Shown: positions 5,116-49,538 of the stretch, in pieces
How the letters are laid out: the number at the start of each line of letters is the position of its first letter
Position numbering within the stretch: position 1 is the first letter of the stretch
IMG/VR virus record: IMGVR_UViG_3300013121_000010
Coordinates: 13,903 to 77,902 of that record
Length of the DNA stretch: 64,000 nucleotides
Reading direction: 5' to 3' (one strand)
Source: a virus
Taxonomy: Duplodnaviria; Heunggongvirae; Uroviricota; Caudoviricetes
The notes under the pieces: model-generated
Told to the model about the DNA's origin: nothing
Database searches by the model: none
Seen by the model: the letters and a program-made list of their open reading frames with translations, nothing else
Program-made: the position numbers and the translations under genes

Positions 5116-5119
5116 CAAA

Positions 5120-5599: not shown

Positions 5600-5608
5600 G
5601 TGTAATTT

Positions 5609-6124: not shown

Positions 6125-6129
6125 TAAAA

Positions 6130-31845: not shown

Positions 31846-31847
31846 AA

Positions 31848-32973: not shown

Positions 32974-33746
32974 TTCTTAATCTCCAAGTAATAAATATTA
33001 GCTTTTTTACCACTTTCTTTTTCTATTTCCTTAAGTTTATTCAATACATCATCTATTATATTATTTATTCTTATTTTAGATAATGTATAGTTAGTGTAAT
33101 TTTGTTGAATTCTTAATATACTAATTCCGTGAGAAAGTAATAGACCATTCTTCTCTGCATCGGACTTTTTGGCTCTCTCAAACGCTTCCTGACCCCATAT
33201 AGGTTTAAAATGCGATGGGCCGTCTATTTCTATACATAAATTAAAAGCAGGAAGGAATATGTCCATTTCCAACTTTTCATTAACTAACATATCGTCTTTA
33301 TGATATTGACATTTATAACCAGCATTTTTTAGAGCTTCAAGTATTATTTTTTCTAGTTTTGAACCTTCTTTTGAAGCTTTTCTAGCAGCATTAATACCTT
33401 TACTTCTAATTTCATTTATTTTTTCTTCTGACATACTATTCCATATTTCAGAACGTTTTTCAGATATAGCTTCTTTTTCAGAGTCAGTTAAATTAGTATA
33501 GCTTCTGTGTATGGATTCGGCAATCTTATTTCTGTGTTCGTCCGTTAGTTTTTTACCTTTTGTTGGGTGTTGACACACGCCGTTTTTTAAAGCTAACGAT
33601 TGACATTCACTTTTACTTCTAGGTTTGAAGCCCAGTTCCTTTGCTGCTTTTATTACTTTATTAATTGATATGTTTAATTCTTTAGAAATTTCTCTGAAAC
33701 TTCTTTGTTTACCAACATATTCCCTTTCAAAATATTCTTTGTTCAT
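32970..33746 (-). CDS. NUMOD3 + DUF559/Vsr-like endonuclease (freestanding homing endonuclease-like)
   Basis: N-terminal HTH, GKKLTDEHRNKIAES (NUMOD3-like), MDIFLP..LCIEIDGPSHF...D..KN (Vsr/DUF559 fold). Confidence 0.7.
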   Translation of the reverse strand: MNKEYFEREYVGKQRSFREISKELNISINKVIKAAKELGFKPRSKSECQSLALKNGVCQHPTKGKKLTDEHRNKIAESIHRSYTNLTDSEKEAISEKRSEIWNSMSEEKINEIRSKGINAARKASKEGSKLEKIILEALKNAGYKCQYHKDDMLVNEKLEMDIFLPAFNLCIEIDGPSHFKPIWGQEAFERAKKSDAEKNGLLLSHGISILRIQQNYTNYTLSKIRINNIIDDVLNKLKEIEKESGKKANIYYLEIKK

Positions 33747-34231
33747 AGTATTTTACTCAAATTAAAACGATTACCTATAACCCTAGCTTTTCTATTATAG
33801 CAATTATCTATCAAATCTGCATGATACATTGACCTGCATAATAGCTCTACTTTGTTATTTAGGAATAAACTGGCATAATTTTCATAATTTTTAATTGGAT
33901 TATGTCTAATAAACTCTAAATCCCAAACTAAAAATAATATTTTAGGTATTGTAATTATTTTAGTAGCTAGATGTGTTGTACTGGCACTAGTTGTTATAAT
34001 AGTACCTTTAAAACCCCAAGCTTCACTTACAGACATTATAGTTGTATTTAAATGCATACATACAGAATGTGGATTATTACAAAATAATAATACGTTATTT
34101 TTACTAGAATTTAATTCATTAATTATATCATAAGATAGTTGACTAGATTCTAAATTATCAACTATTATTCCTATTTGCTGAGTGTTCAATGTAAAATCTC
34201 CAATACGGCATCCAAAGTTTTCTGTAATCAA
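33743..34231 (-). CDS. Hypothetical protein at the end of the glycan cluster, possibly a GT-like fragment
   Basis: ORF with LFLVWDLEF motif. The start may be downstream of 34231 (TTG at 34189) because of the overlap with the upstream gene. Confidence 0.45.
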   Translation of the reverse strand: MITENFGCRIGDFTLNTQQIGIIVDNLESSQLSYDIINELNSSKNNVLLFCNNPHSVCMHLNTTIMSVSEAWGFKGTIITTSASTTHLATKIITIPKILFLVWDLEFIRHNPIKNYENYASLFLNNKVELLCRSMYHADLIDNCYNRKARVIGNRFNLSKIL

Positions 34232-35015
34232 ACGGGTTAAATAATCTATGATGATAATTAATTTTTAATAGCTCGTCCCATGAATCTACATTTATGTGAG
34301 GAAGTGAACTTAATAAGCTTTGTAAATTTTTTACTATTGGTATTCTACCTAAATATAAAGTTTCCCATGTTCTGTGGCAATCTAACCCATTTCCTCTTGG
34401 TGAAAGTACATAGGTGCTTTCCGTTATATCTGATAAATATTCATTATATCTTTCTCCATTTGAACCCATTCTTATATGAACAAAATTTTCACCTTTATTT
34501 TTTAATAGATTATAAGCTGTATTTAAAGCTGTGTTTCTTTCTAGAGGATTTGTTCTTAAATTAAAGTTTACATATATTCTATTTTTTGGTATATAATCTT
34601 CACTATTTTCTAGTTCATTGTACAACATTTCAGCTTTATCATAGTCAAAACAATATCTATTTTCAAGTCCTATAGGTAATTGAATAAGATTTTTTTGCTC
34701 ATCACATTCTATATTTTGACCGAACCAGTATTTTACATTATCTGGCTTTAAAGCATAATCAGCGTCGTTTTCACCTATTCTATCTCCTTCTTTACTATTC
34801 TTAATTGCTCCATCGCTATTATGTGTTATAAGAACAACATCATTTTTTATTTTTTCTATTTTTTTATATACATATTTAAAATCATGTGTATGACAATAAA
34901 CAGTTTTGCAATTATTTATATCTCCATCATGTTGGCCATTTCTGTGTAATTTTACATCAGCTAAATTTTGGAATTTTGTTCCACAAATATAGTTTTCCAT
35001 GAAAAACTCTTTCAT
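34158..35015 (-). CDS. Exostosin-like (GT47-like) glycosyltransferase
   Basis: YVLSPRGNGLDCHRTWETLYLGRIPIV matches the exostosin-family motif. Confidence 0.7.
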   Translation of the reverse strand: MKEFFMENYICGTKFQNLADVKLHRNGQHDGDINNCKTVYCHTHDFKYVYKKIEKIKNDVVLITHNSDGAIKNSKEGDRIGENDADYALKPDNVKYWFGQNIECDEQKNLIQLPIGLENRYCFDYDKAEMLYNELENSEDYIPKNRIYVNFNLRTNPLERNTALNTAYNLLKNKGENFVHIRMGSNGERYNEYLSDITESTYVLSPRGNGLDCHRTWETLYLGRIPIVKNLQSLLSSLPHINVDSWDELLKINYHHRLFNPFDYRKLWMPYWRFYIEHSANRNNS

Positions 35016-35018
35016 ATT

Positions 35019-35636
35019 TTATAATCTCCATAATGACATATTTTTATATGGGTATGTTTCAGCAACAGATGTTAATGGTCTACCTAAATTAAATGGTGCT
35101 TGAGTTAAATCAAGTTTCATGTGATGTATATATGGACAATTTTTTCTTTCAAAATTAGAAAATCCATATTTACTATAATCTTCTTCTTGTATTGGGTTAA
35201 GATAATTAGTTGCGAATAAATATTTAGCACCACTATTTTTTATATTGTCAATAATATTTAAGACCATATTATTAGGAAGATGAATCATAATATCTCTACA
35301 TATACAAACATCTGCCTTTCTTAAAGAATCTTTAGAAACATCACAAACATTTAATTTATAACCATTTTCTACTAAAGAAGGCCAATTTGCTCTACTATAG
35401 CAGTCATAACCAACATAATCATCTATAACTGGTGAAATGATTGTTTTCATCCAGAATAAATCGCCGCAACCAATATCATTTATTGATTTTATGCCAAATT
35501 TATTAGACTTATCTAAAAAATATCTAGATATAAACCACCTAATATTTTTAGTATGTTCTATATCGCTTGACCAACCGCAAACTGTATCTTTACTTGGCCA
35601 GCCTTGTTCAAAAATACTTAATAACGAGTTATTCAT
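35019..35636 (-). CDS. Class I SAM-dependent methyltransferase
   Basis: INDIGCGD motif I, YVGYD, ADVCICRDIMIHLP. Confidence 0.85.
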   Translation of the reverse strand: MNNSLLSIFEQGWPSKDTVCGWSSDIEHTKNIRWFISRYFLDKSNKFGIKSINDIGCGDLFWMKTIISPVIDDYVGYDCYSRANWPSLVENGYKLNVCDVSKDSLRKADVCICRDIMIHLPNNMVLNIIDNIKNSGAKYLFATNYLNPIQEEDYSKYGFSNFERKNCPYIHHMKLDLTQAPFNLGRPLTSVAETYPYKNMSLWRL

Positions 35637-36538
35637 ATTGTTGAGAATTCCTTAATTTTATGTTTATTATGCATGTGTAAATTAAACAGTTTAGTATATG
35701 TTTTATTCATACAGTGAATGTACGGATACGGTTTTTTAAACGATGCCCCTTTCCATTTAACACCGAAAGTTCTACCAATATCGTGATTTACTGTATCTAA
35801 AAAACCTGGGTCATGTCCATTATTAGTTCCAGCTAAATATTGACCATAAGATGCTGGGTCAAACAAATAATCACCTAATGTATTTTCATCTGGTAAGCTA
35901 GGAAAGTAATTAACATTTTTATAATGACGTAAAATTGTCATTTCATGTACCATATCTATTGTATATCTACTTATTAAAGCTGCATTTCCAAGTTTTAGCT
36001 GGTATAAATACCAATACATCATTTCATTTAAAACCATGTAATTTGGACAATGAACCACATTGCAAACACAATGTTTTTCATTCATATAACACATGGTTAT
36101 GTTTTCTCTGCTCTTTAAATAATACTCATAAAGCCACTCAAAAGAACCATAAATTAAGTTATCATTTTCTATATGCCAAAAATCTTTTAATTTATACTTA
36201 CAAACAAAAGCATTTAATAAAAATAATCTTTCTGATGTTCCATGCACAAAGTTTTCTGGTGATGGATAATGGGTGTTTGGCTTTCCCCAATTTTTAAACC
36301 ATGAAACTTCTCTGAATTCTCTTAGTAATACATTATCGGTTAATTCAGAAATAGGACATAATTTCACATTCTTTATATTAAATTTATTTGAAAACTTCCA
36401 CCAATGTTTTTCCTCTGCTATAAAAGTTATTTCACATTTAGGATTTGTTTTCTGAACTTGCTTAATACATACTTCGGTGTAATCAGGTATTTCTGAACCT
36501 GTATGAGTAAGAATAAGTTTACTATGCGTAATCTTCAT
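35633..36538 (-). CDS. Putative glycosyltransferase (GT-A-like)
   Basis: IPDYTEVCIKQV, ERLFLL, WHIENDNLIY, FDPASYGQYLAG, LFNLHMH; cluster context. Confidence 0.5.
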   Translation of the reverse strand: MKITHSKLILTHTGSEIPDYTEVCIKQVQKTNPKCEITFIAEEKHWWKFSNKFNIKNVKLCPISELTDNVLLREFREVSWFKNWGKPNTHYPSPENFVHGTSERLFLLNAFVCKYKLKDFWHIENDNLIYGSFEWLYEYYLKSRENITMCYMNEKHCVCNVVHCPNYMVLNEMMYWYLYQLKLGNAALISRYTIDMVHEMTILRHYKNVNYFPSLPDENTLGDYLFDPASYGQYLAGTNNGHDPGFLDTVNHDIGRTFGVKWKGASFKKPYPYIHCMNKTYTKLFNLHMHNKHKIKEFSTI

Positions 36539-37082
36539 AGTTTATATTCCAATCTTCCGTATTTATATCTATACTATTTGATAGTAGTGTTGTTGGTGGT
36601 CCTGTATCGTATGGATATGGTTTTAGCGGCATATATGTTCTATTGTATTTATAGTACTTTTCAAATGAAAAGTTAGGAAATTCTCTTGGAAAGTAATCTG
36701 AATCGTGTAATATAACAAGTGGAACATCATTAAATCTAACTATTGTATCAAGGCGTGATTCCCAATTACCTTGGTCTACAAATAATACTGCAATTTCCAA
36801 CTCGTTTAACTTACTTATTATTTCAGACCAATGTTTAAGCAGGAAAAATCTATGGTGGTCACTTACAAAATCTGTGAACTTCATAAACCATTTTTCATCA
36901 GTTTCTATAGAGATAGCATTCTTACCTAATTCCTTACAAACCTCATGTATTAAATGAGTGCTACCATCACCACAGCCTAATTCTACAATATGACCATTAT
37001 TAATCGACTTCTTAATACATTCATAAAGTACTGGTTGATGTGTAGCATAAGGGTTTGTTTTATGCATGTAGTTTATATTCAT
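36522..37082 (-). CDS. Class I SAM-dependent methyltransferase-like protein
   Basis: YATHQPVL, IVELGCGDGST, LFVDQ, VILHDS. Confidence 0.7.
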   Translation of the reverse strand: MNINYMHKTNPYATHQPVLYECIKKSINNGHIVELGCGDGSTHLIHEVCKELGKNAISIETDEKWFMKFTDFVSDHHRFFLLKHWSEIISKLNELEIAVLFVDQGNWESRLDTIVRFNDVPLVILHDSDYFPREFPNFSFEKYYKYNRTYMPLKPYPYDTGPPTTLLSNSIDINTEDWNINYEDYA

Positions 37083-37336
37083 TTATTTTCCTGTTTTCCC
37101 ATTCTTTCTTGAAGGTCTGCCACTAATGCTTGTAGTTGTTGAATATGAACTTCTTCATTATCATACGTTTTCACACGTTCTTTTTGTAAAAATTCTATAC
37201 AACAAGATTGATATGTTATTTTTTCTTGAAGTCTTTTAATTTGTTTTTCATGCGTAAAAAAGGTGTAGTCAGAAAGCACAGTATAACCTAATAATAATGT
37301 TAATATAACATATATTACAATATTTTTTATATCCAT
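37079..37336 (-). CDS. Small membrane-anchored coiled-coil protein
   Basis: Hydrophobic IVIYVILTLLLGYTVL followed by a heptad-like charged region. Confidence 0.55.
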   Translation of the reverse strand: MDIKNIVIYVILTLLLGYTVLSDYTFFTHEKQIKRLQEKITYQSCCIEFLQKERVKTYDNEEVHIQQLQALVADLQERMGKQENK

Positions 37337-38184
37337 GTATGCACCGTTAAAGCATCAAAACCAAGTTTTTCACAAATATCTATTTCTTTTGCTATCTCTA
37401 CATCAGTCCAAGGAAAAGGAGGAAGTCCATTGCCATGTTTACCACTTAATTTTGTTTTAAACTTTACTTTGTTGTATTTATCAGGCTCATATTTTTCCAC
37501 AAAATTACCATATATTTCGTAATCTGCTGGAATCCAATCTTCACAACATCTTTCACAAACATACTTATAAGCATCTTCTATTAATACATTTAGTGGTGTG
37601 TCAAAAATAATTTTATAAGCTGTTTTATTTTTATTTACAAAATTTAAATTTATATCTAAAAGTAATGAAAATGTTAAATCGTTGGTCATTAACATTATTT
37701 CAGATATAAAAGAATGGTCATAAACTCTACCAAATCCAAAACATTCTTCCATCATATTAAAATATGGTTTATGATTTTGGTCAACACCTAAGAAAAAGTT
37801 AAATTTATTATTTGTTATTAAGTCTAATTTTCTTAGTAAAATTAAATCTGAATCAATAACAAGATATCTATATGTTTCTGGTTTTTGAATAGCATAGAAT
37901 AATTTTATAAATTGTTGGTATATCCACTGTGGCCTTCTAAAGTTTTTAGCCTCTAACGGATTAAGAGGCATTATATCACTTTCTAATTCATTTATTACTT
38001 TGCATGGTGCAACTTTATTTAATTCTTCAACATCTATCTTTGTCGGAGTAACAATAGAAATAACTTTTGGTAAAGGGTTTAAATATTTTAGACTCTCCAC
38101 ACAAAAACGAAGTTTGTGATAATCTTTAATAGCTGCTGGTATTACTACATCGTATTCCATTTTATATCTAACTCCTGATGACAC
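37327..38184 (-). CDS. Putative glycosyltransferase (DUF6492-like, GT-A)
   Basis: DVVIPAAIKD, WIYQQFIKL, YLVIDSD (DxD), ADYEIYGNF. Confidence 0.6.
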   Translation of the reverse strand: MSSGVRYKMEYDVVIPAAIKDYHKLRFCVESLKYLNPLPKVISIVTPTKIDVEELNKVAPCKVINELESDIMPLNPLEAKNFRRPQWIYQQFIKLFYAIQKPETYRYLVIDSDLILLRKLDLITNNKFNFFLGVDQNHKPYFNMMEECFGFGRVYDHSFISEIMLMTNDLTFSLLLDINLNFVNKNKTAYKIIFDTPLNVLIEDAYKYVCERCCEDWIPADYEIYGNFVEKYEPDKYNKVKFKTKLSGKHGNGLPPFPWTDVEIAKEIDICEKLGFDALTVHTWI

Positions 38185-38975
38185 CCAACTATAGCAGAGA
38201 AATCAATAGAATTAAAATCTAAATAGTTCCCAGATACATAATTATCATTAATGTCTTTTACATTCTTACCAAACGTTTCACCATTTCTATTTGAACACGT
38301 TTCCTGCACTCTATTTATAGGAGTATTTACTACACAACTATGTTTAAACGATGCCATCATAGATGGAACACAATTTCTTAAATTATTCATAGCTATTTCT
38401 TGTTGATTTGGATTATTGAAATTACATTGTAAAAGTATTTCTTTTAATTGGCCAGTTCTAAATATATGGCCATCAACAGAACAAGGATAACCGAAATTCA
38501 TATAATTTGGTACTGATTTCCAATCCCAAAAAATCATATCTTCAAAACCAAATAACTCTTTAGGGCATATTGTTGGAATATTATTGTATGGGTCTTGAAT
38601 TGTAGTGTTTAAACCTAAACGCAGAGAAAAACACCCAATATTATCACTTTCCAATATATCTAGAACATCACTTTTATCACCGTTTCTATTTTGATAAACT
38701 ATATCGTCATCAGTAAAGAAAGTTGTGTAATTGTATGATTCATTTACTAATAACATTATATCATCTTTATAATTATCTTGTTTAATAAATGTTATAGACG
38801 GAAATTTACTTTTACATATTTCATAACCGCGTTCATATTCATCATTACTTGTTGTGTAAACCACGCTAATATTGTCAAACCAATCTAGATTCAACAATAT
38901 GCTTTCAATTATAAGCTGACATTGTGCAGCCCTGTCTTTAGATAGTATTATTCCTTGCATAGTTCTTCGTACCAT
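38145..38975 (-). CDS. Putative glycosyltransferase (GT2-like)
   Basis: IILSKDRAAQ, TFFTDDDI (DxD), FSLRLG, SVDGHIF. Confidence 0.6.
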   Translation of the reverse strand: MVRRTMQGIILSKDRAAQCQLIIESILLNLDWFDNISVVYTTSNDEYERGYEICKSKFPSITFIKQDNYKDDIMLLVNESYNYTTFFTDDDIVYQNRNGDKSDVLDILESDNIGCFSLRLGLNTTIQDPYNNIPTICPKELFGFEDMIFWDWKSVPNYMNFGYPCSVDGHIFRTGQLKEILLQCNFNNPNQQEIAMNNLRNCVPSMMASFKHSCVVNTPINRVQETCSNRNGETFGKNVKDINDNYVSGNYLDFNSIDFSAIVGCHQELDIKWNTM

Positions 38976-39904
38976 TTTATAGTTTCCTTCAAACCATCTT
39001 TTAATGAAATTTCTGGTTTAAAACCAAAATTATTGTAAGCTTTTGTTATATCTAATAATCTTTTTGGTTGACCATCTGGTTTTGATGTATTAAACGTTAT
39101 AATTCCTCTATAATCAACTATTTCTTTTATTAAGTATGACAAATCTCTTATTGAAATATCAACTCCACAACCGATATTTATAGGCTCATAACCATCATAA
39201 TCTTGTGTTGCTAAAGCTATTGCTCTAGCAGCATCTTTAACATGAATGAACTCTCTGGTAGCATAACCTGTACCCCAAACTTCTACATTTTTCAATTCTT
39301 TATTTCTAGCATGAATAAATTTCTTTATTAAAGCTGGTATTACATGAGAAGTTTTTTCATCAAAATTATCACCTGGACCATATAAATTAACAGGTATTAA
39401 GTTGATAGCATTAAACAACCCAGCTTTTTTATGCTGTATTAATAACTCCATTATTGTTTTTTTAGCGATACCATAAGCAGCATTTGTTTCTTCTGGATAA
39501 CCATTCCACAAATCTTCTTCTTTAAAAGGAGTTTTAGCGAACTTTGGATATGAACAAACTGTACCTATTTGTACTAACTTACCAGTTTCTCTAAATCTTT
39601 TACTTTGGTATAACGCAGTAAATAGATTAAGTCCAATGGTTAAATTTTTCCTCATAAATTCAGGTGAGCGATTGGCATTAGCACCAATACCACCAACCAC
39701 AGCAGCTAAATTTATTACTATGTCTGGTTTTAGGTAATATTTAGATGTACTATATGTAAAACATTTCTTTGTTTTTGCTAAATCTGTTAAATCACAATCT
39801 TTGCTACTCAATGGAAATACATAATCATGCTTTGTTCTTAGAATATATTCTGTTAAATGCCTACCTAAAAATCCAGTCCCACCAGTTATAACAATTCTTG
39901 ACAT
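38948..39904 (-). CDS. fcl: GDP-L-fucose synthase
   Basis: ITGGTGFLG, LAAVVGGIGAN, IGTVCSYPK, YGIAK, PVNLYGPGDNF..SHVIPALI, VWGTG.A.REFIHV, KPDGQPKRLLD. Confidence 0.95.
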   Translation of the reverse strand: MSRIVITGGTGFLGRHLTEYILRTKHDYVFPLSSKDCDLTDLAKTKKCFTYSTSKYYLKPDIVINLAAVVGGIGANANRSPEFMRKNLTIGLNLFTALYQSKRFRETGKLVQIGTVCSYPKFAKTPFKEEDLWNGYPEETNAAYGIAKKTIMELLIQHKKAGLFNAINLIPVNLYGPGDNFDEKTSHVIPALIKKFIHARNKELKNVEVWGTGYATREFIHVKDAARAIALATQDYDGYEPINIGCGVDISIRDLSYLIKEIVDYRGIITFNTSKPDGQPKRLLDITKAYNNFGFKPEISLKDGLKETIKWYEELCKE

Positions 39905-40902: not shown

Positions 40903-41275
40903 TATAATTCCTTAATAGTCTTGCTTTGGCTTCTTCTAAACTAACTCTCATTTTTTCTTCTCTTTCTACATTTGGATATACATCTAATGTAAACCCCTTA
41001 CTGGATATAATTGTTACGCCTTTAACAACATCTGTTATTTTGGTTTCACCTTCTATTGTAAATATAATACATTTATCTTTTTCTATAAGGCCGTTAATAA
41101 TATCTAAGTCATTTGATAGATTGTATTTTTGTTTTGTAGGCGACTTTAATCTTTCATATATTTCTACCAAATATTCTTCATTATCTATAATAGTTATTTC
41201 ATAACATTCATTACCGTTTTTTGTTTCTACAATTAAAACATCATTATTATTTAATTTTTCTAAGTTGATTGTCAT
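40886..41275 (-). CDS. Hypothetical protein (129 aa)
   Basis: ORF overlapping both neighbours within the operon. Confidence 0.5.
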   Translation of the reverse strand: MTINLEKLNNNDVLIVETKNGNECYEITIIDNEEYLVEIYERLKSPTKQKYNLSNDLDIINGLIEKDKCIIFTIEGETKITDVVKGVTIISSKGFTLDVYPNVEREEKMRVSLEEAKARLLRNYNEDNS

Positions 41276-41987
41276 ATTCTATAGCCTTATATAATTGAGA
41301 TAAAGTATCTATATCATAAACGCATGATTTTTTAACTTTTATAACTTCAAATTTATGACCTAGATTTATGCATTTATTTAAAATTTCATAAGTAAAACAT
41401 TTATTGTTTTCGTCATCATAGCACTTTTCTCGAAAAATTTCTAGTGTTTTACCTGAAATATAGCATATTTGCGACCATTTTCTATCAGAAATAAAGTTAA
41501 ATCTAGACACTCTATTATTTTCATCTGTTATAAATCCAATCTCATTTTTTTCAATAGAACCATTATCTTCTAAAATTTTGTTTGTATCATTAACATCTAT
41601 ATTTTGTATGCTTTCTTTATTGTAATATAAATCACCCATTATTATTAAACATCTTTTGGTATCTATTACATCTAATCCTAAACCAATACTATAAGCTGTG
41701 TTTGTATCTTCATATCTTTGATTATATACTATCTTAACGTTTTCGTTTTTTAATATCTTTCTGAAAATTTCTATTTGATTTCCACATACTACTGTAATAT
41801 CTGAGTTTGGATATATAGATTTAATGTTTTTTATATTTTTACTTATTAAAGAATCTCCGTTAATATCTAATAGAGATTTATGTGTTTTCATTCTTAACCT
41901 TGTACATAATCCAGCACAAGGCAAGACTACAGAAATTTTATCTTTTAATTGTTCTTTTATAAAATAAATGTTTCTAGTAGCTTCCAT
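41247..41987 (-). CDS. Nucleotidyltransferase (NTP_transferase; LicC-like cytidylyltransferase)
   Basis: VLPCAGLCTRL...KSLL, VYNQRYEDTNTAYS, IIMGDL, YDIDT. Start placed at ATG 41987 to minimise overlap. Confidence 0.75.
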   Translation of the reverse strand: MEATRNIYFIKEQLKDKISVVLPCAGLCTRLRMKTHKSLLDINGDSLISKNIKNIKSIYPNSDITVVCGNQIEIFRKILKNENVKIVYNQRYEDTNTAYSIGLGLDVIDTKRCLIIMGDLYYNKESIQNIDVNDTNKILEDNGSIEKNEIGFITDENNRVSRFNFISDRKWSQICYISGKTLEIFREKCYDDENNKCFTYEILNKCINLGHKFEVIKVKKSCVYDIDTLSQLYKAIEYDNQLRKIK

Positions 41988-42738
41988 TTTGTATTCTATT
42001 TTGGATTTTAGACCAATTTTCTCTCCAAATTTCACTAGGTACAGTATCGCTAGAATTAAACCCAGTTACTCTATAAACATGTAATGGTTCTGCTATATGT
42101 ACAGCTACAAACTTTTTACATATTCTTAACCATAAATCCCAATCTTCTGCCGTTCTCATTGTTTTATCATAAAAACCACATTTTTCTATAGCTATCTTAT
42201 TAATAAGAGGTGTGTTAGATATAATACATTCCTGGCGAAGCCTACTTATAGAAAACGGTTCTCTATATTCATGTATTTTTATATCTTTAACCTCATTATA
42301 AATGAAAGCATCGCTATAAACTATTCCTATTCTATCAATATCTGACGACATAATATATACAGATTTTTTAATCTTCCCAGGTAGATAAAAATCATCTGCA
42401 TCTAACATACAAAATGCATCATTGTTCCAAGCCATTCTTATAAGATTGTTCCTTGCTGAGCTTGGTCCAGATGGGTTAGGATTGTTAAAAAGAATTAAAG
42501 GAATATTTTGGTATTTACCAAATATAGTATTTCCATCTATTTGATTTTTGTCAGTTATTAGATTATTTATTAATTCTAAAGAATAGTCTGTAGAACCTTC
42601 ATTAGAAACATAAATACATAAATTGTCATATTTTTGTTTAACAACACTATTTAAAGCTTTAGTTATATATCTACCATGATTAAAACAAGGAATTATAACG
42701 CCAACTCTTAACTCATCTTTTTGACTAGGTTCTTGCAT
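41974..42738 (-). CDS. Family 2 glycosyltransferase
   Basis: VIIPCFN, EGSTD, GPSSARN, MLDADD (DxD), EDWDLWLR. Confidence 0.9.
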   Translation of the reverse strand: MQEPSQKDELRVGVIIPCFNHGRYITKALNSVVKQKYDNLCIYVSNEGSTDYSLELINNLITDKNQIDGNTIFGKYQNIPLILFNNPNPSGPSSARNNLIRMAWNNDAFCMLDADDFYLPGKIKKSVYIMSSDIDRIGIVYSDAFIYNEVKDIKIHEYREPFSISRLRQECIISNTPLINKIAIEKCGFYDKTMRTAEDWDLWLRICKKFVAVHIAEPLHVYRVTGFNSSDTVPSEIWRENWSKIQNRIQNGSY

Positions 42739-43454
42739 TTTTGTACTCTTGTTAATACTTTTAGTTTTCTAATAGCGTGTTCGTTAAGATGACCCCTAAT
42801 AAATTTAAATGTTTTTGATTGATATATTATTGGTAGTCCTGGTTTATTTGATAAACATAAAAATTTTTCATCATTTAATATAATTCTTTGTTTTAATTGA
42901 TTAACTATATCTTTGGAAATTAGATTAACCTTATCACTATCAACTACACAGAAATATACTGTGTTTACCTTCTTAGAACAGATGTTTTCTGCTTCTTGTC
43001 TTAATAAATTTTTTCTAGTTTTTTTATCAAACAATATTTGTTCGCACGACCAATTAAATTTACAACCACCATCAAAAAAGAATAAAGGTTCTATTTTTGA
43101 ATGATTCATAAAAATTACTGATGATGGCATTGGAGACATACTATTTATTTCATTAATAGTTTCTTTAATTTCACTTTCTTTAGCATTTTTATGTATAAAT
43201 ACTAATAGTGTTAAGTCAATTTTTAATTCATCTAATGCTATATCAAGATAAGTTTTATTGCCACATAATAATTCTTTCTTAGCTTCTTTCCATCCACTTG
43301 GCCTTCTAAACATACAAAAATTATTTATAACAACGAATTTATCGCCATCGTGTTCACACACTTCCTTTTCAATATTATCATGTAGTGAAAATTCGCAGTC
43401 TAATCCTTTTCTAAACTCACAATATTGACATGATGTTTTAATCTTATTTGACAT
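42708..43454 (-). CDS. Hypothetical protein (248 aa), N-terminal Cys motifs
   Basis: SCQYCEF and FCMFRR; remainder weakly GT-A-like, with no clear DxD. Confidence 0.5.
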   Translation of the reverse strand: MSNKIKTSCQYCEFRKGLDCEFSLHDNIEKEVCEHDGDKFVVINNFCMFRRPSGWKEAKKELLCGNKTYLDIALDELKIDLTLLVFIHKNAKESEIKETINEINSMSPMPSSVIFMNHSKIEPLFFFDGGCKFNWSCEQILFDKKTRKNLLRQEAENICSKKVNTVYFCVVDSDKVNLISKDIVNQLKQRIILNDEKFLCLSNKPGLPIIYQSKTFKFIRGHLNEHAIRKLKVLTRVQKCKNLVKKMS

Positions 43455-43863
43455 ATTCTTTTTTCCCTATAATTAACCATTTATCTTGTTGTGGTATATA
43501 ACGAGCTATTATATTAAAACCAACCTGTTGCATTATTTCACTTATATAGTCTAATGTATAAATACCATGAATATATTCTTTGTATAGTGCATTATTTAAA
43601 TCTTTTATTGATAGGTTATAATTATTGAATTCTCTTAAAATCATTCTTGGGTTAGTACCCATTATATTTATAATTCCACCTTTTATACTTAAAAGGCTTA
43701 AACATGCTTTAAGAAAATTATGCAATTCTTCTATTTTTAACATAGATATTTCATTGATTGTTATTTCATCTATTGTGCCAGGAATATATTTAGCATTTGG
43801 ATTAAATCTTTCATAACCTACAATCTCTTTACATTCTGGTGTCATCAACATTAGTTTAGTCAT
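43444..43863 (-). CDS. Hypothetical protein, possibly a degenerate methyltransferase fold
   Basis: FLKACLSLL..GGIINI..TN and YISEIMQQVGF resemble C-terminal MTase elements; no SAM-binding GxG motif. Confidence 0.4.
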   Translation of the reverse strand: MTKLMLMTPECKEIVGYERFNPNAKYIPGTIDEITINEISMLKIEELHNFLKACLSLLSIKGGIINIMGTNPRMILREFNNYNLSIKDLNNALYKEYIHGIYTLDYISEIMQQVGFNIIARYIPQQDKWLIIGKKEYVK

Positions 43864-44860
43864 TTAACACGCTCCTAAATATTTTATCCCATTCTTTAGT
43901 AAATCTATCTAAATTGAATTTTTCCACTATTGTTTTCCTTGCGTTTTCCCCTAACTTATTTCTTAAATTAACGTCTTTTCTTAATAAATCAATGTGAGAA
44001 CGTAATTCTTCCGCTGTATTACCAAGCAAACCATTCTCGCCATGATTTATAAATTCAGGAATCATGCAATTATTTGTCGAAACAACCGCACAACCACAAG
44101 ACATAGCTTCTAATAATACTGTTGGTACAGGTGATATTAATGATGTATTTAAGAATATGGAACTGCGTTGATATTCCTTTATTAAATAGTCTGTATTTTC
44201 AGCACTTACTGATAAACCTTCTGTATCACCCCAAATATTTAAAGGTAAGTCCGAGTTAGGCCATTTTGTTATTTGTTGCCAAAGTCTAAAACCGCAAAAA
44301 ATATCTCTATTTATCCAATCATTTACAACCGAACAAATTAAATCACTTCGTTCTTTTTTATCATTTGGCTTAAAATAATCAGTGTCTAAACCATGTCTTA
44401 CAACTCTAACATTTTCATCATTTAATGACCATCCCCATTTTTCTACAGAATATTCTGATATAAAAACATCAATGTCTCCACTCATAGACCTTAGGTATTG
44501 TTGAGAAGCAGAAGAAATATTAGGTATTGGTAATGTATGCTCAAGAGTAACTAATGGAACTTGTAAAATATTAGCGGCTTGCTTTGCTAGTTCATACTGT
44601 CCGAATTTATTCTGTGAGAATACCAAATCAATGTCAACCCAAGGCGGTACGCTGCCACCAGACATTAAAAAATAGTTTTTTGGCACAGGAGAGTACTTTG
44701 TGTTCCAACTTTTAATATTTTTACCTTGTATTGCATAAAAGTTATGTCCGGTATGAGCTAAGTGAGTTTCATATCTTTCATGTGTTGGCATACACAATAT
44801 ATTCAACTTTTCATCATTTTTTCTTGTTGACTTTCTAAGTATACTTCTTACTGTTTGCAT
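43856..44860 (-). CDS. GT4 (GT-B) glycosyltransferase
   Basis: VRHGLDTDYF, IFLNTS..SP.P..LLEAMSCGCAVVST, GENGLL. Confidence 0.88.
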   Translation of the reverse strand: MQTVRSILRKSTRKNDEKLNILCMPTHERYETHLAHTGHNFYAIQGKNIKSWNTKYSPVPKNYFLMSGGSVPPWVDIDLVFSQNKFGQYELAKQAANILQVPLVTLEHTLPIPNISSASQQYLRSMSGDIDVFISEYSVEKWGWSLNDENVRVVRHGLDTDYFKPNDKKERSDLICSVVNDWINRDIFCGFRLWQQITKWPNSDLPLNIWGDTEGLSVSAENTDYLIKEYQRSSIFLNTSLISPVPTVLLEAMSCGCAVVSTNNCMIPEFINHGENGLLGNTAEELRSHIDLLRKDVNLRNKLGENARKTIVEKFNLDRFTKEWDKIFRSVLND

Positions 44861-45399
44861 TATACAATAGCTCCAACACTTACATTTGATTTAACTTTAT
44901 TTCTTATTCTTTCAACCACTTCATCAAGCTTAACAAAGTTATGTCCAAAATTACTAATCATATTTTCATACATTCTTTGTATAACAGGTATTAAATCTGA
45001 TTGATTAGTGTTTTTAGCTCTGTTTATACACTCTCCAATATCAGTTTTTATTGGTACTACAATAGCCTCATTGTTAAAATAAAACCATTTTATTAAGCTT
45101 TCTTCTGTTGTGTTTGTACAATCTACAAGCACATCATAATTATCATTTAATAATGTTTTTACCATTATTTGAGCGGTAGCATGAACAAATGGTTCTACAT
45201 GCCAATTAAAACGATGACCAAGACTTAATCTTATTGAATCTGGTGAAACAACTACTCTTTTAGGTATAAAATTACCTTCTTGCATAAAGAATTTTGTTCT
45301 ACCTATTTCATCAATTGATATTAAGTATTCAGACCAATTTTTTGCTATAGTAGACTTTCCAGAACGCGGTAAACCGCACATTACATAGAGCTTAGACAT
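44860..45399 (-). CDS. P-loop kinase (AAA_33 / polynucleotide kinase-like)
   Basis: VMCGLPRSGKST Walker A, SPDSIR, VLVDCTN, ECINRA. Confidence 0.8.
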   Translation of the reverse strand: MSKLYVMCGLPRSGKSTIAKNWSEYLISIDEIGRTKFFMQEGNFIPKRVVVSPDSIRLSLGHRFNWHVEPFVHATAQIMVKTLLNDNYDVLVDCTNTTEESLIKWFYFNNEAIVVPIKTDIGECINRAKNTNQSDLIPVIQRMYENMISNFGHNFVKLDEVVERIRNKVKSNVSVGAIV

Positions 45400-46499
45400 T
45401 TCTTCATTTTACTCCCAATCACTTGATACGAAAAATTATATGATTTTTTAAAGTTATCGTTACACTTATCCTTATATTCATCAGTTTTGCTAATATAGAA
45501 TGATATTCTCATTTTTTTTCTTAATTCATTTATATCAATAGAATCCCATTCTTCATTACCAACATAAATGTCTCCAATAGCACTTCCTGTCATACCAACA
45601 ACAAATTCTCTATTAGTTTTAACTAAATCATCTGGGCCAACAAATGCTCTATGTCCACTAGTATTAGATGCTATAACCATATTACCAAAACTCATAGCAT
45701 CAAATAATGGTATATTCCAACCCTCACCATAACTAGTAGCTACAAAACAATTACATGTTTTATGTAGAGAACAAATTTCAGTTTCGCTTAATCTTTTACA
45801 AATTATAGTTTCGCCAATATATGTTGACTCATCTTTATAGAGCTTTAAATTTCTCTTTAATTCATTACAAACATTAGATATTGCTTGATAAGATTCTTGT
45901 TGATTTAGTCCTGGCACAGATGTTTTGATAAGTAGTTCAACAGGTTCATCTGGTTTAAATTCTAAATGAAAAGCTTTTAGTACAGCTAATAAATTTTTTC
46001 TTCTGGTAAATTCACCCATCCAATAAAATACATATTTGTTTTTAAAGTGAGGTATGTCCAACTTATCATAATTTAATTGATATTTTGAGGTATCACATGG
46101 AACATTAATAACTTCTATAGGTATTGTAACCCCACTATTTAATGACGCTTCTTTGTTTTGCTTACATGGAACCCAAGCAGCATCCATCATATTGATATGT
46201 TCTGTCCATGATGAATTTTTAAAGTGAGAAGTCTCTGTAAAGTAACATCCTATATTTTTAAATCTTTTATCATTTACAAAGTGATGTGGTAGACTATTTT
46301 GTATTACAAAATTACACCCCTTAGATGATTGTTCTTCCAACTCTTTTATTCTATTTGGAACTTCACCATTTATATTATTAAGTTTCAAATAACGAGGAAC
46401 AACATCTATATTTACAGAATCTAAAGCAAGAATATTATTAATAGCTGAATGTGACCAACCAGTACCATCACGATAAGGAGCTATGTACAAAACTTTCAT
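45381..46499 (-). CDS. GT4 (GT-B) glycosyltransferase
   Basis: RRKNL, CFVATSYGEGWNIPLFDAMSFG. Confidence 0.88.
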   Translation of the reverse strand: MKVLYIAPYRDGTGWSHSAINNILALDSVNIDVVPRYLKLNNINGEVPNRIKELEEQSSKGCNFVIQNSLPHHFVNDKRFKNIGCYFTETSHFKNSSWTEHINMMDAAWVPCKQNKEASLNSGVTIPIEVINVPCDTSKYQLNYDKLDIPHFKNKYVFYWMGEFTRRKNLLAVLKAFHLEFKPDEPVELLIKTSVPGLNQQESYQAISNVCNELKRNLKLYKDESTYIGETIICKRLSETEICSLHKTCNCFVATSYGEGWNIPLFDAMSFGNMVIASNTSGHRAFVGPDDLVKTNREFVVGMTGSAIGDIYVGNEEWDSIDINELRKKMRISFYISKTDEYKDKCNDNFKKSYNFSYQVIGSKMKKCLSSM

Positions 46500-48202
46500 T
46501 AAACACCTTCCTTTTTTCTAATTATCCAATATGGTTGAGGTTCATTTATTAAACCAAGTCTTAATTTTTCGTAATAGTTTCTTTTTTCCGCTATTCTTAA
46601 TAAATTATTAATGAAATCTTTTCTAGTAAATGACATATAACGCTGATTATTGGTTATAAAAGACGCTTCATTGAATATTATTTCTGATGTGCCTTTAATA
46701 GCTTCCCCATAATTTAAATCTTTAAGCCATTTCATAGCTTCATACGAATTAATTCTTTCTGGTTCCTTTAGTATTTTTACTAAGCACCAATTTACAAATT
46801 CGTTATTTGGTATATTACTAGGAATTTTATCTAATTCTGGTTCTTGTATATTAGCGTTTTTATCATTCCAGTTGCTTGGTACAACACTATCAAAATAATC
46901 AGACCAAAGTTTTGCTGACTTATCGTAATCGTATGCTTGTAACGCCTTTATCCTCTGTGAATTACCCATTTTAAGCAGAGAAAAAACAGGCATTTTTAAA
47001 TGTTCTGTAATAATATCTGCGGCTTTATTATTATCCGGTAAAGCTCTTTGAGCATTAGTTCCAGTATCCCAAAACATTCTTTGTACTGGTAATCTTATAC
47101 CATCAATATCATTAAGAATAGATGACATTGCAGAATAGTCTACTGCTGCTACTGGCACTCCGCAAAATGCAGCTTCACACTGTGGAATGCCATACCCCTC
47201 GCAATTTGAATATTGAATGTAAATATCAAAGCAATTATATATAGCGGCTAAATCAACAGGGCTAATACCATTTTGAGTATTAGGCATTTTACAAGATATA
47301 TTATTACAATGAGGGCATGTCTTTACTGAATCAGAGAAGAATGAAGGTATTATAGCACCGCATTCAAAACACTTATAAGTAAATAGAACCTTATTTCCTA
47401 TATCAAAATATTTTAAGAAATAAGGAATATCCCAGCCTATATCAGGATAGCATGTATGACAATATAAATAACAGTTAGGTACTTCCTTGCTTATTTTACT
47501 AAAAACTTCAAACAAATCAGGGTACAGTTTACGCCCTTGATTACGCATCACAGTACCAATTATTTTTATGTCATCTTCAAAACCCATCATAGAACGATGA
47601 TTAAACTTATCTTTTACTGGTTTAAAAATTTCCTTATCAGCAGAAGGAGAGGCTATTCCTCTAAAATTTATATTGTTATTTGTTCCATCTAACAATGTTT
47701 GCTTACCAAATTCAGAATAAGAAAAAACCGCATCAGCACTAGAATATGCGTATAACCATTGTTCTTGCAAAGGTGCTGAATCAACTGTTGGCATAACAGC
47801 AAACTTAAAGAATCTTCTTAACGGCGACCTCAGTACATATTCATGCATCCAAAAGTCTCTAAAATCACAAACAACATCAGGTTGAAAGTCTAAACAAGTT
47901 CTTTCAAATCTCCATTCTCCATATTGATTTGTCATATTACTATTATACAAATCGTTTTCTTCTTTGCTTTCGGATGGTAAATTACCATAATATGTCCACG
48001 GAATATCAAACATTCTAGGTGGACCAAATAATCTAATATAATTATCTATTTCATTTTGCAATGGAGCGACATGACCATAACATCCCAATTCAGCTATTTT
48101 ATATTTTCCAGTAGAATATAACCTTTTCATTATTTCTCTACCGTATGTTGAATATCCGGTAGATAAAAAACTAGCTTCGGTTAGAAATAGAATCTTTTTC
48201 AT
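46499..48202 (-). CDS. GT4 (GT-B) glycosyltransferase with a Zn-ribbon insertion (567 aa)
   Basis: VMRNQGRK, YNCFDIYIQYSNCEGYGIPQCEAAFCGVP; inserted CFECG...CPHC. Confidence 0.85.
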   Translation of the reverse strand: MKKILFLTEASFLSTGYSTYGREIMKRLYSTGKYKIAELGCYGHVAPLQNEIDNYIRLFGPPRMFDIPWTYYGNLPSESKEENDLYNSNMTNQYGEWRFERTCLDFQPDVVCDFRDFWMHEYVLRSPLRRFFKFAVMPTVDSAPLQEQWLYAYSSADAVFSYSEFGKQTLLDGTNNNINFRGIASPSADKEIFKPVKDKFNHRSMMGFEDDIKIIGTVMRNQGRKLYPDLFEVFSKISKEVPNCYLYCHTCYPDIGWDIPYFLKYFDIGNKVLFTYKCFECGAIIPSFFSDSVKTCPHCNNISCKMPNTQNGISPVDLAAIYNCFDIYIQYSNCEGYGIPQCEAAFCGVPVAAVDYSAMSSILNDIDGIRLPVQRMFWDTGTNAQRALPDNNKAADIITEHLKMPVFSLLKMGNSQRIKALQAYDYDKSAKLWSDYFDSVVPSNWNDKNANIQEPELDKIPSNIPNNEFVNWCLVKILKEPERINSYEAMKWLKDLNYGEAIKGTSEIIFNEASFITNNQRYMSFTRKDFINNLLRIAEKRNYYEKLRLGLINEPQPYWIIRKKEGV

Positions 48203-49071: not shown

Positions 49072-49073
49072 AT

Positions 49074-49535: not shown

Positions 49536-49538
49536 TAA

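What the first reader, a model, noticed from the sequence alone, without database searches (positions are those of the whole stretch)
33743..48202. 14.5-kb phage-encoded glycan synthesis and decoration pathway
Seen: 19 contiguous co-oriented ORFs. They include three GT4, one CgeB-like GT-B, one clear GT2, three further GT-A-like proteins, an exostosin/GT47-like enzyme, GDP-fucose synthase, a LicC-like nucleotidyltransferase, two SAM methyltransferases and a kinase. They sit directly downstream of the sigma/ssb/dnaE genes, with no flippase, Wzy or ABC exporter. Established: bacterial surface-polysaccharide loci need export genes. Multi-GT plus methyltransferase clusters build capsid or fibril glycans in chloroviruses and mimiviruses, and a few actinobacteriophages glycosylate their virions with a handful of GTs. 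Inference: a cytoplasmic pathway that builds a complex, fucosylated, O-methylated and possibly phospho-decorated glycan on the virion, on a scale more like giant eukaryotic viruses. Alternative targets are host envelope molecules or phage DNA. This is the strongest candidate for an undescribed system here.
Basis: partly seen in the sequence, partly recalled or inferred. Interest (0 to 1): 0.82.

Follow-up and report, generated by a model that had tools for sequence, protein, structure and literature searches.

The report
Phage sugar-chain factory beside its replisome
An uncultured 149-kb water and wastewater phage carries 19 back-to-back genes, ten of them sugar-adding enzymes, that most likely build a complex fucose-containing, methylated sugar chain inside the infected cell, probably for the virus particle; the core of this gene set is shared by a very large phage lineage, but what receives the sugars has not been shown.

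Summary
Observation confirmed. Window 33743-48202 (minus strand) holds 19 tightly packed ORFs. Ten are glycosyltransferase-like: five GT-B, including a full-length homologue of chlorovirus A075L (GT114), and five GT-A. The rest are a GDP-L-fucose synthase, a nucleotidyltransferase, three methyltransferase-like proteins, a P-loop kinase and three small unknowns. No polytopic membrane protein was detected anywhere in the genome.

The block has two parts. A 7-8 gene core (g19-g12/g10) sits in fixed synteny after split DnaE, exonuclease and SSB. It occurs in at least 546 IMG/VR loci, and in 37 of 39 loci found independently through DnaE. A swappable accessory island lies between g12 and g01: 1-6 genes in relatives, 10 here. 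This island holds a mobile DUF6492 / GT-A / GT114 cassette plus fucose genes, also seen in giant-virus-like and bacterial contigs.

The target is unproven. My best reading is cytoplasmic glycosylation of virion proteins (0.45). DNA glycosylation is weakened: five relatives lack ThyA and TET homologues, and this phage's own ThyA looks like a dCMP methylase.

The scan noted the same core operon in another genome (e1-5381035) and many analogous phage sugar islands. I class it as a new variant of a known kind.

The parts
46499..48202 (-). g19: 567-aa GT4 (retaining GT-B) with an inserted 4-Cys ribbon and a C-terminal helical extension. First gene of the conserved core.
   Evidence: PHROG 2170 at 5.5e-20. 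PF00534 scores 25.2 bits, just below the cut-off. AF2 pLDDT 88. Top Foldseek hits are 3oy2 (chlorovirus NY-2A GT, 3e-17), MshA and BshA. C278, C281, C296, C299 and E335/E343 are invariant. More than 2388 homologues.
45381..46499 (-). g18: GT4, core.
   Evidence: PF00534 at 1.2e-11. PHROG 2170 at 5e-19. Present in 57 of 58 relatives.
44860..45399 (-). g17: P-loop kinase (KTI12/PSTK/polynucleotide-kinase-like), accessory.
   Evidence: PF08433 and PF13671. phrog_505. TIGR03574 weak. Present in 5 of 58 relatives.
43856..44860 (-). g16: GT4/CgeB-like GT-B, core.
   Evidence: PF00534 at 6.8e-18 and PF13524 at 1.9e-10. Present in 54 of 58 relatives.
43444..43863 (-). g15: small class I SAM methyltransferase-like protein, core.
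   Evidence: Atlas structural matches at TM 0.81-0.84 to Methyltransf_11 clusters, which is a lead rather than proof. Present in 52 of 58 relatives.
42708..43454 (-). g14: N-terminal 4-Cys motif plus a GT-A-like domain, core.
   Evidence: C8, C11, C19 and C46 are invariant. Profile hits to TarS and SpsA at E 0.04-0.18. Atlas TM 0.50-0.55 to GT2 clusters. Present in 52 of 58 relatives.
41974..42738 (-). g13: GT2 (GT-A), semi-core.
   Evidence: PF00535 at 3.6e-18. TuaG-like at 6.6e-13. Present in 27 of 58 relatives.
41247..42035 (-). g12: sugar- or alcohol-phosphate nucleotidyltransferase (MobA/IspD/GlmU-N-like). Last gene of the core.
   Evidence: PF12804 at 1.6e-8 and PF01128. NCBIfam hits are all sub-threshold. 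Present in 56 of 58 relatives.
40886..41275 (-). g11: 129-aa unknown, first gene of the variable island.
   Evidence: No family hit. No BLAST homologue in 82 loci.
39886..40902 (-). g10: CgeB-like GT-B. This position is always filled by g10 or by the alternative families f21 or f72.
   Evidence: PF13524 at 4.1e-21. Position analysis.
38948..39904 (-). g09: GDP-L-fucose synthase (GMER/Fcl-like).
   Evidence: PF01370 at 1e-49. NF047922 at 2e-75, the best hit but below the curated cut-off. The partner GMD is at G000:C1:2086-4248.
38145..38975 (-). g08: GT-A glycosyltransferase with an invariant DD motif.
   Evidence: AF2 pLDDT 83. Foldseek hits to GnT-I (1.3e-7), TarP, POMGNT1 and SpsA. D88 and D89 are invariant.
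37327..38184 (-). g07: DUF6492 protein, a GT-A-like lead. First gene of the mobile three-gene cassette.
   Evidence: PF20102 at 6.6e-7, above the cut-off. Lies next to g04 and g02 homologues in at least 15 of 80 loci and in bacterial contig L171.
37079..37336 (-). g06: 85-aa protein with an N-terminal hydrophobic segment, unknown function.
   Evidence: Hydropathy scan. No family hit.
36522..37082 (-). g05: probable class I SAM methyltransferase.
   Evidence: Motif I VELGCGDGS read directly from the sequence. No family hit. Homologues lie near GT114 genes in 5 loci.
35633..36538 (-). g04: GT-A (GT8/Nucleotid_trans-like). The family is shared between phages and Nucleocytoviricota.
   Evidence: Atlas TM 0.82-0.85 to viral clusters, one of them fused to an exostosin domain; TM 0.6 to GT8 and Gly_transf_sug clusters.
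35019..35636 (-). g03: methyltransferase.
   Evidence: phrog_3382 at 3e-27.
34158..35015 (-). g02: GT114, a homologue of the PBCV-1 A075L beta-xylosyltransferase.
   Evidence: phmmer E 2.5e-16 over residues 43-273 against 8q8i, 8avq and 8asa. The A075L donor-binding residues N148, R158, N202-G203 and R208 align to identical residues. D67 is invariant.
33743..34231 (-). g01: conserved 145-171-aa unknown that marks the right border of the variable island.
   Evidence: Present next to d1 in 27 or more loci. No PDB profile hit.
48171..49071 (-). Upstream flank: sigma-70 factor (48171-48698, overlapping g19 by 32 nt) and SSB (48682-49071).
   Evidence: PF04542, PF04545 and PF00436. PHROG 351 and 44.
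32218..33746 (-). Downstream flank: d1 (HTH plus a Vsr/DUF559-like nuclease motif) and d2 (conserved unknown). These are lineage-conserved genes, not glycan genes.
   Evidence: Alignments A3 and A5. phrog_559 at 3e-16. Weak hit to the AbaSI nuclease domain. Fixed position in 24-29 loci.

Best explanation
The block is a phage-encoded, wholly soluble glycan assembly line that works in the cytoplasm of the infected cell.

A lineage-wide core lays down a conserved methylated oligosaccharide. The core comprises three GT4-type GT-B enzymes, a 4-Cys GT-A, a GT2, a small methyltransferase and a nucleotidyltransferase that activates a donor.

A swappable accessory island then extends and caps that glycan. 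Here the island holds a CgeB-like GT, GDP-fucose synthase fed by an intein-bearing GMD elsewhere in the genome, three GT-A enzymes, an A075L-type GT114 that in chloroviruses adds xylose onto fucose, two methyltransferases and a kinase. The result would be a strain-specific, fucosylated, O-methylated structure.

The most likely acceptor is one or more virion proteins (capsid, tail or fibres), glycosylated before or during assembly as in chloroviruses and some actinobacteriophages.

Shown: gene content, homologies, the conservation pattern, and the absence of detectable polytopic membrane proteins. Inferred: the order of reactions, the sugars other than fucose, and the acceptor.
For: Gene content:
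- Ten GT-like proteins, a nucleotidyltransferase, GMER and methyltransferases.
- A GMD with an intein sits at the head of the packaging/structural operon, between a second sigma factor and TerL.
- g02 is a full-length homologue of A075L, the only experimentally characterised relative in the block. A075L acts on the capsid-protein glycan of PBCV-1 by adding Xyl to Fuc (PMC11571054, PMC9614988).
- PBCV-1 likewise uses soluble GTs plus GMD, GMER and methyltransferases (PMC9614988).

Structure and nearest relatives:
- The top structural hit of g19 is a chlorovirus GT.
- The nearest cultured-phage relatives of g19 and g18, at 21-26% identity, lie inside virion operons: S-CBS4 gp014 and Arthrobacter phage DanielleIgnace gp21.
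- No protein in the genome has 4 or more TM segments.

Conservation:
- The core is present in 37 of 39 DnaE-anchored relatives. The two exceptions are cut off before the site.
- The accessory segment varies from 1 to 10 genes, all glycan-related. In relatives it includes a UDP-GlcNAc 2-epimerase, an FkbM methyltransferase and a GT8. This is the pattern expected of a surface structure under diversifying selection.
Against: - The block is embedded in the replication/recombination module: DnaB, primase, dNMP kinase, split DnaE, exonuclease, SSB and sigma upstream, and a nuclease-like gene downstream. It overlaps those genes. Known phage virion-glycosylation genes sit in structural operons instead.
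- No acceptor protein was identified, and there are no expression or glycan data.
- GT4 folds cannot distinguish protein, DNA, lipid or small-molecule acceptors. The DNA arabinosyltransferases of DLP3 and RB69 hit the same PDB entries (PMC13326640).
- A glycosyltransferase recognises the sugar it extends, not what that sugar is attached to, so the A075L homology does not prove a protein-linked glycan.
Confidence: 0.45

Rival explanations
1. DNA hypermodification. The core GTs, co-expressed with the replisome, build an oligosaccharide on a modified base of the phage DNA to block host nucleases, as in T-even, RB69/DLP3 and 5mYOX-linked systems.
For: - The block lies between SSB/sigma and a nuclease-like gene, inside the DNA-metabolism module.
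- A T4 gp1-type dNMP kinase is conserved upstream.
- The order GT, GT, P-loop kinase, GT, plus a LicC/MurU-like nucleotidyltransferase, mirrors the DLP3 gp76-79 and gp82 cluster (PMC13326640).
- The phage's own ThyA homologue has the dCMP-directing N177D change.
- Two core GTs carry 4-Cys motifs.
- Phage GT clusters of up to trisaccharide length on DNA are documented (bioRxiv 10.1101/2023.12.21.572611).
Against: - No known route to a hydroxyl-bearing base was found. The own ThyA homologue keeps Leu143 (MALPPCH), which is the methyl-transfer type rather than the hydroxymethyl or hydroxy type by the criteria in PMC13326640.
- The own genome has no Tet_JBP.
- Five relatives that carry the core (83-100% complete) have neither ThyA nor Tet_JBP.
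- g18 and g19 have no sequence similarity to the DLP3, RB69 or T4 enzymes.
- Ten GTs, fucose and O-methyltransferases exceed any DNA glycan described so far.
- The kinase is present in only 5 of 58 relatives.
Confidence: 0.15
2. Remodelling of the host envelope. The soluble GTs act at the inner face of the membrane on host lipid-linked intermediates (O-antigen, capsule, teichoic-acid-like or glycolipid). Host flippases export the altered glycan, changing the cell surface to exclude superinfection or to stop progeny sticking to debris.
For: - Many structural neighbours of g19 act on membrane or lipid acceptors: PimB', WaaG, PglA, MurG and the eukaryotic GPI3/PIG-A.
- g13 resembles TuaG, WcaA and PglI-type enzymes, and g08 resembles TarP.
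- Lack of phage exporters does not exclude use of the host's.
- JGI labels homologues 'involved in cell wall biosynthesis' (automatic names).
Against: - There is no priming polyprenyl-phosphate transferase, no Gtr-type membrane GT and no polytopic membrane protein in the genome.
- A 7-15 kb, universally retained, intein-invaded module is more than known lytic-phage surface conversion needs.
- The only characterised homologue (A075L) works on a virion glycan.
Confidence: 0.2
3. Another soluble acceptor. The pathway makes a free glycoside or oligosaccharide, or glycosylates host or phage non-structural proteins. Its role would be metabolic takeover or anti-defence, not a virion, DNA or envelope decoration.
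For: - The best solved structural matches of g19 are small-molecule GT4 enzymes: MshA, BshA, GlgM and sucrose-phosphate synthase.
- Co-transcription with early or middle genes is likely.
Against: - Hypervariable multi-GT islands with methyl capping are typical of exposed glycans, not of metabolites.
- The PDB is rich in small-molecule GT4 enzymes, so these matches carry little weight.
Confidence: 0.1

Closest known systems
Chlorovirus PBCV-1 capsid (Vp54) glycosylation machinery: A075L (GT114), A064R, A111/114R, A061L, GMD A118R, GMER A295L (PMC9614988, PMC11571054)
   Same: - Virus-encoded, soluble, cytoplasmic GTs.
- Own GDP-fucose supply (GMD plus GMER).
- Sugar O-methyltransferases.
- A direct A075L homologue (E 2.5e-16, donor-binding residues kept).
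- GT-A families shared with Nucleocytoviricota.
   Different: - The host is a bacterium and the virus a tailed phage.
- The genes form one operon next to the replisome rather than being scattered.
- The conserved GT4 core (g19, g18, g16) was not compared with PBCV-1 proteins, so no counterpart is known.
- No glycan or acceptor is known here.
Mycobacteriophage and actinobacteriophage virion glycosylation cassettes (Che8, Corndog, Myrna; Freeman et al. 2023, Cell Host Microbe 31:1216, cited in PMC12619734; paper itself not held)
   Same: Phage-encoded GT4-type GTs, with or without an O-methyltransferase, and without exporters. g18 has its best cultured-phage matches among actinophage GTs.
   Different: - Those cassettes have 1-4 genes and lie inside the capsid/tail operon.
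- This module has 8-19 genes, lies in the DNA-replication module and is universal in its lineage.
- Identity is only 21-26%.
Phage DNA glycosylation clusters: T4 alpha/beta-GT, RB69/DLP3 arabinosyl-5hoC (PMC13326640), 5mYOX/ThyS-linked GT clusters (bioRxiv 10.1101/2023.12.21.572611)
   Same: - GT4-like GT-B enzymes, a P-loop kinase and a LicC/MurU-like nucleotidyltransferase.
- Placement next to DNA-replication genes.
- A dNMP kinase in the genome.
   Different: - No hydroxymethyl or hydroxy base synthase and no TET in relatives.
- No detectable sequence similarity to those enzymes for g18 or g19.
- Far more GTs, plus fucose and methylation genes.
Bacillus spore-crust/coat glycosylation (CgeB, SpsA and neighbours). 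The biology is from my own knowledge; the family links come from tools.
   Same: Soluble GTs that decorate a protein shell assembled inside the cytoplasm, without export. g10 and g16 carry the CgeB-type domain PF13524. g14 and g08 resemble SpsA.
   Different: This is a resemblance at domain level only. There is no synteny and no shared acceptor.

Membership tests
CAZy GT114 (A075L family) | Full-length sequence homology to PBCV-1 A075L | tested here: met
   g02 residues 43-273 align to A075L chain residues 42-274 at E 2.5e-16.
CAZy GT114 (A075L family) | Donor-binding residues Asn148, Arg158, Asn202-Gly203 and Arg208 (PMC11571054) | tested here: met
   In the HMMER alignment (chain numbering +2) these residues align to identical N, R, N-G and R in g02. 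Thr150 and Asn153 are replaced.
CAZy GT114 (A075L family) | Catalytic base Asp73 | tested here: inconclusive
   HMMER pairs Asp73 with a Glu in a low-confidence stretch. By eye, g02 LITHNSDG matches A075L LVTGHSDY, and that Asp (D67) is invariant in three phage homologues.
CAZy GT114 (A075L family) | Beta-xylosyl transfer to O4 of fucose | not testable with these tools
   Needs an enzyme assay. Fucose supply genes are present.
GT4 retaining GT-B glycosyltransferases | GT-B fold with the C-terminal EX7E motif | tested here: met
   g19 model matches MshA, BshA and 3oy2 at E 1e-13 to 3e-17. E335 and E343 are invariant. PF00534 is significant for g16 and g18.
Phage virion-glycosylation cassette (actinobacteriophage type) | GT genes located within the capsid/tail operon | tested here: not met
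   The block is on the opposite strand from the structural genes and lies between SSB/sigma and a nuclease-like gene. Only GMD lies in the late operon.
Phage virion-glycosylation cassette (actinobacteriophage type) | Glycans demonstrated on capsid or tail subunits | not testable with these tools
   No virions are available and the phage is uncultured.
Phage DNA glycosylation pathway | Enzyme that creates a hydroxyl-bearing base (ThyA homologue with N177D plus L143D/E, or a 5mYOX/TET) | tested here: not met
   The own ThyA homologue has N177D but keeps L143. No Tet_JBP was found. Five relatives lack both.
Phage DNA glycosylation pathway | dNMP kinase and linkage to replication genes | tested here: met
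   PF21448 at 57207-58025 and in relatives. Synteny.
Bacterial surface-polysaccharide locus (Wzx/Wzy or ABC type) | Initiating polyprenyl-phosphate transferase, flippase or ABC exporter, and polymerase | tested here: not met
   No protein in the genome has 4 or more predicted TM segments (crude Kyte-Doolittle scan). None of the 19 ORFs matched a Pfam or PHROG exporter or priming-transferase family.

The most novel reading that the evidence does not exclude
The lineage-wide core (g19-g12), translationally coupled to SSB and the replisome and carrying two 4-Cys glycosyltransferases, glycosylates the phage genome, or a DNA-bound replication or packaging protein. It would do so through an acceptor chemistry that needs neither ThyA-type nor TET-type hydroxylation. 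That would be a new class of oligosaccharide DNA hypermodification in one of the most widespread uncultured aquatic phage lineages.
Probability: 0.13. Interest if true: 0.9.

Novelty: new variant of a known kind. Interest (0 to 1): 0.6.

Why it matters
If the glycan coats the virion, this lineage would show that bacterial viruses can run capsid-glycan factories as complex as those of chloroviruses, partly with the same enzyme families (GT114). The lineage has hundreds of IMG/VR loci and thousands of metagenomic homologues from lakes, oceans, estuaries and wastewater.

The core-plus-variable-island layout implies strain-level glycan diversity. That could affect host range, grazing, particle stickiness and stability in water. 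It also marks a shared, horizontally mobile pool of glycan genes between phages, giant viruses and intracellular-type bacteria.

If the target is DNA instead, it would be a new hypermodification chemistry.

In either case the A075L homologue, the GMD/GMER pair and the GT4 with an intein in its active site are directly testable enzymes.

Tried and rejected
- Megablast of the block against 50,697 phage records gave no match. No cultured relative was found. tblastn of g18 and g19 gave only 21-26% generic GT hits.
- The search for related loci with g19 alone found nothing. An alignment was needed.
- PHROG scan of ten plus-strand structural proteins gave no hits, so the acceptor or capsid proteins could not be named.
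- No Phage_sheath_1 hit was found.
- Literature: the accession of a related NCBI contig was not found. The 'moraphages' (PMC12619734) and the Dishui Lake phages (PMC10611076) are other lineages. I found no paper describing this module.
- Expression: no RNA holder is listed. Four runs labelled RNA-Seq were laid on 31001-51000. They gave only scattered low-depth contigs flagged 'probably DNA', which is no evidence either way.
- Profile or sequence searches against the PDB gave nothing for g01, d2, g04, g07 and g08. A Pfam scan of 23 d2 homologues gave nothing.
- Foldseek of g19 cannot separate acceptor classes. It hits the same entries (3mbo, 3c4q, 6kih) that PMC13326640 reports for DNA arabinosyltransferases.
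- I considered d1 to be a mobile homing endonuclease, as PHROG names suggest. I rejected this because its position is fixed in 29 loci.
- I considered the own ThyA homologue as a source of hmC or hoC. I rejected this because Leu143 is retained and relatives lack the gene.

Full report
**What is there.** The window is bases 13903-77902 of a 148,730-bp IMG/VR virus record, about 98% complete and about 30% GC. From 64000 down to 31080 the minus strand is one gapless run of genes. The stretch 33743-48202 holds exactly 19 ORFs, which I number g19 (upstream) to g01 (downstream). Directly upstream lie a sigma-70 factor (which overlaps g19 by 32 nt) and SSB. Beyond them come the DnaE C-half, a DEDDh exonuclease, the DnaE N-half (PHP plus polymerase domains), a PD-(D/E)XK protein, a T4-gp1-type dNMP kinase, a primase, DnaB and RecA. 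Downstream are a conserved HTH-plus-nuclease-like gene (d1) and conserved unknowns. The strand then meets the end of the plus-strand structural operon.

**Gene content.**
- GT-B enzymes: g19, g18 and g16 (GT4), g10 (CgeB-type PF13524) and g02.
- g02 is the sharpest result. It aligns over its full length (E 2.5e-16) with the crystal-structure sequence of PBCV-1 A075L, the founding member of CAZy GT114. That enzyme adds beta-xylose to the fucose of the chlorovirus capsid N-glycan (PMC11571054). The donor-binding Asn148, Arg158, Asn202-Gly203 and Arg208 are kept. The catalytic Asp is probably D67 of g02, which is invariant in three phage homologues, but the automatic alignment is ambiguous at that point.
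- GT-A enzymes: g13 (GT2); g14 (invariant Cys4 motif plus a GT2-like fold); g08 (AF2 pLDDT 83; Foldseek hits to GnT-I, TarP and SpsA; invariant DD); g04 (GT8/Nucleotid_trans-like, a family shared with Nucleocytoviricota); g07 (DUF6492).
- Supply and tailoring: g12 nucleotidyltransferase; g09 GDP-L-fucose synthase; methyltransferase g03; probable methyltransferases g05 (motif only) and g15 (Atlas structure); P-loop kinase g17.
- The partner GDP-mannose 4,6-dehydratase lies outside the window at G000:C1:2086-4248. It is split by an intein and sits between a second sigma factor and an intein-bearing large terminase.
- Only the 85-aa g06 has a hydrophobic segment. A crude hydropathy scan found no protein with four or more TM segments in the genome.

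**Architecture across relatives.** g19 has more than 2388 full-length metagenomic homologues. The 120 best are 42-54% identical, on contigs of up to 179 kb, from JGI, Tara, ENA and Logan. There are at least 546 loci in IMG/VR. In 82 fetched loci the order is fixed:

helicase, primase, dNMP kinase, PD-(D/E)XK, DnaE-N, exonuclease, DnaE-C, SSB, (sigma), then g19-g18-(g17)-g16-g15-g14-(g13)-g12, then a variable segment, then g01-d1-d2-d3.

Of 58 loci with enough downstream sequence, g18 is present in 57, g12 in 56, g16 in 54, and g15 and g14 in 52 each. By contrast g13 is in 27, g10 in 31, g09 in 25, g08 in 6, g17 in 5 and g07 in 1. Anchoring independently on the DnaE N-half, 37 of 39 loci carry g19 downstream. 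The two exceptions end just before the expected site. The core is therefore a defining trait of this phage lineage.

The segment between g12 and g01 holds 1-6 genes in the 28 loci where both borders were captured, and 10 genes (7 kb) here. In relatives it contains other glycan genes: a UDP-GlcNAc 2-epimerase, an FkbM methyltransferase, a GT8, and weak GT2, GT25 and GT-D hits. A sub-clade (L098, L137-L140) shares this window's island order g10-g09-g08-g07-g04-g02.

**The island is mobile.** GT114 homologues occur in at least 480 IMG/VR loci, on contigs from 4 kb to 465 kb. In at least 15 of the best 80 they sit directly after g07- and g04-type genes. In 16 of 80 they lie within 8 kb of GMD and GMER. 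A DUF6492 gene, an unannotated gene and a GT114 gene also lie adjacent, in that order, among housekeeping genes of a bacterial contig (L171). A giant-virus-like contig places GT114 beside GT10 and GT11 fucosyltransferase families, GT90 and FkbM (L172).

**What it most likely does.** The content points to stepwise synthesis of a hetero-oligosaccharide by soluble enzymes. A conserved inner part is made by the core, and a variable fucose-containing, methyl-capped outer part by the island.

I favour virion proteins as acceptor (0.45) for these reasons:
- The one characterised homologue works on a capsid glycan.
- The whole toolkit (soluble GTs, GMD/GMER, methyltransferases) matches that of chloroviruses (PMC9614988).
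- GMD is in the late operon.
- The nearest cultured-phage GT relatives lie in virion operons.
- The hypervariable island looks like a surface trait.

These are arguments by analogy. No acceptor, glycan or expression timing has been shown.

**Rivals.**
- *DNA glycosylation (0.15)* deserves attention because of the replisome linkage, the dNMP kinase, and the resemblance to the DLP3/RB69 cluster (GT, GT, kinase, GT, LicC-like transferase; PMC13326640). However, the known prerequisite is missing. The phage's only ThyA homologue has N177D but keeps Leu143, so by the published criteria it should methylate dCMP rather than hydroxylate or hydroxymethylate it. No Tet_JBP is present. Five relatives with the core have neither gene.
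No priming transferase exists, however.
- *A soluble product or non-structural protein target (0.1)* remains possible.

**Novelty and context.** I found no paper on this module. Phage virion glycosylation, giant-virus capsid glycans and phage DNA glycans are all known kinds. This scan has already noted the same core operon in another genome (e1-5381035) and many analogous phage sugar islands.

What is new here:
- The lineage-wide, replisome-embedded core.
- The core-plus-island layout.
- A GT114/A075L homologue and its three-gene cassette in a tailed phage.
- Inteins inside glycan enzymes: in GMD here, and at the EX7E catalytic motif of some g19 homologues.

I class it as a new variant of a known kind, with interest 0.6.

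Noticed in passing
G000:C1:91356-92243 (minus strand; outside the window, about 13.4 kb beyond its end): The only ThyA-family gene has Asp in place of E. coli Asn177 (VPFDIAHY) but keeps Leu143 (MALPPCH). By the criteria quoted in PMC13326640 this predicts a dCMP methylase, so the phage DNA may carry 5-methylcytosine in place of cytosine. Five relatives lack any ThyA gene.
   Followed up: partly
G000:C1:2086-4248 (plus strand; outside the window, upstream of its start): GDP-mannose 4,6-dehydratase is interrupted between FNHE and SPRRG by about 395 aa that end in VVHN|S and carry LAGLIDADG-like motifs. This is an intein in a sugar-nucleotide enzyme. It lies between a second sigma-70 gene (752-1297) and an intein-bearing TerL (4716-7532).
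   Followed up: partly
Homologues of window 46499-48202: P0038, P0044, P0052, P0068: Four of the 120 best g19 homologues are 908-953 aa long and carry intein or LAGLIDADG domains. In P0038, the one I aligned, a roughly 390-aa intein is inserted exactly before the Cys of the C-E-G-x-G start of the EX7E catalytic motif. This is an unusual host protein for an intein and a sign that the gene is under strong purifying selection.
   Followed up: partly
window 32970-33746 (minus) and 32218-32973 (minus): d1 hits 'HNH/homing endonuclease' PHROGs, yet it sits at a fixed position in at least 29 related loci. It has an N-terminal HTH-like region and a Vsr/DUF559-like motif (E..D..ExDGPSHF), and it weakly matches the AbaSI nuclease domain. 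d2 is conserved with no family hit. Both look like lineage-core DNA-metabolism genes, not mobile elements.
   Followed up: partly
L171:8108-10912, L093-L097, L137-L140 and others: The three-gene cassette DUF6492 GT, GT-A, GT114 recurs as a unit in unrelated viral contigs of up to 272 kb. A matching DUF6492 / unannotated gene / GT114 arrangement sits in a bacterial contig among ribosomal-protein genes. It looks like a horizontally mobile glycan module.
   Followed up: partly
window 1-31083 (plus strand) and the whole genome: None of ten large structural-operon proteins matches any PHROG, and the genome has no Phage_sheath_1 hit. The polymerase is a split DnaE. The label 'T4-like' used in earlier notes on this genome therefore looks doubtful; a very divergent long-tailed phage is more likely.
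   Followed up: partly
L006 and L024 (between DnaE-N and the exonuclease gene): In two relatives a g02-type GT114 gene sits between the two DnaE halves instead of in the island, so this gene moves within the lineage.
   Followed up: no
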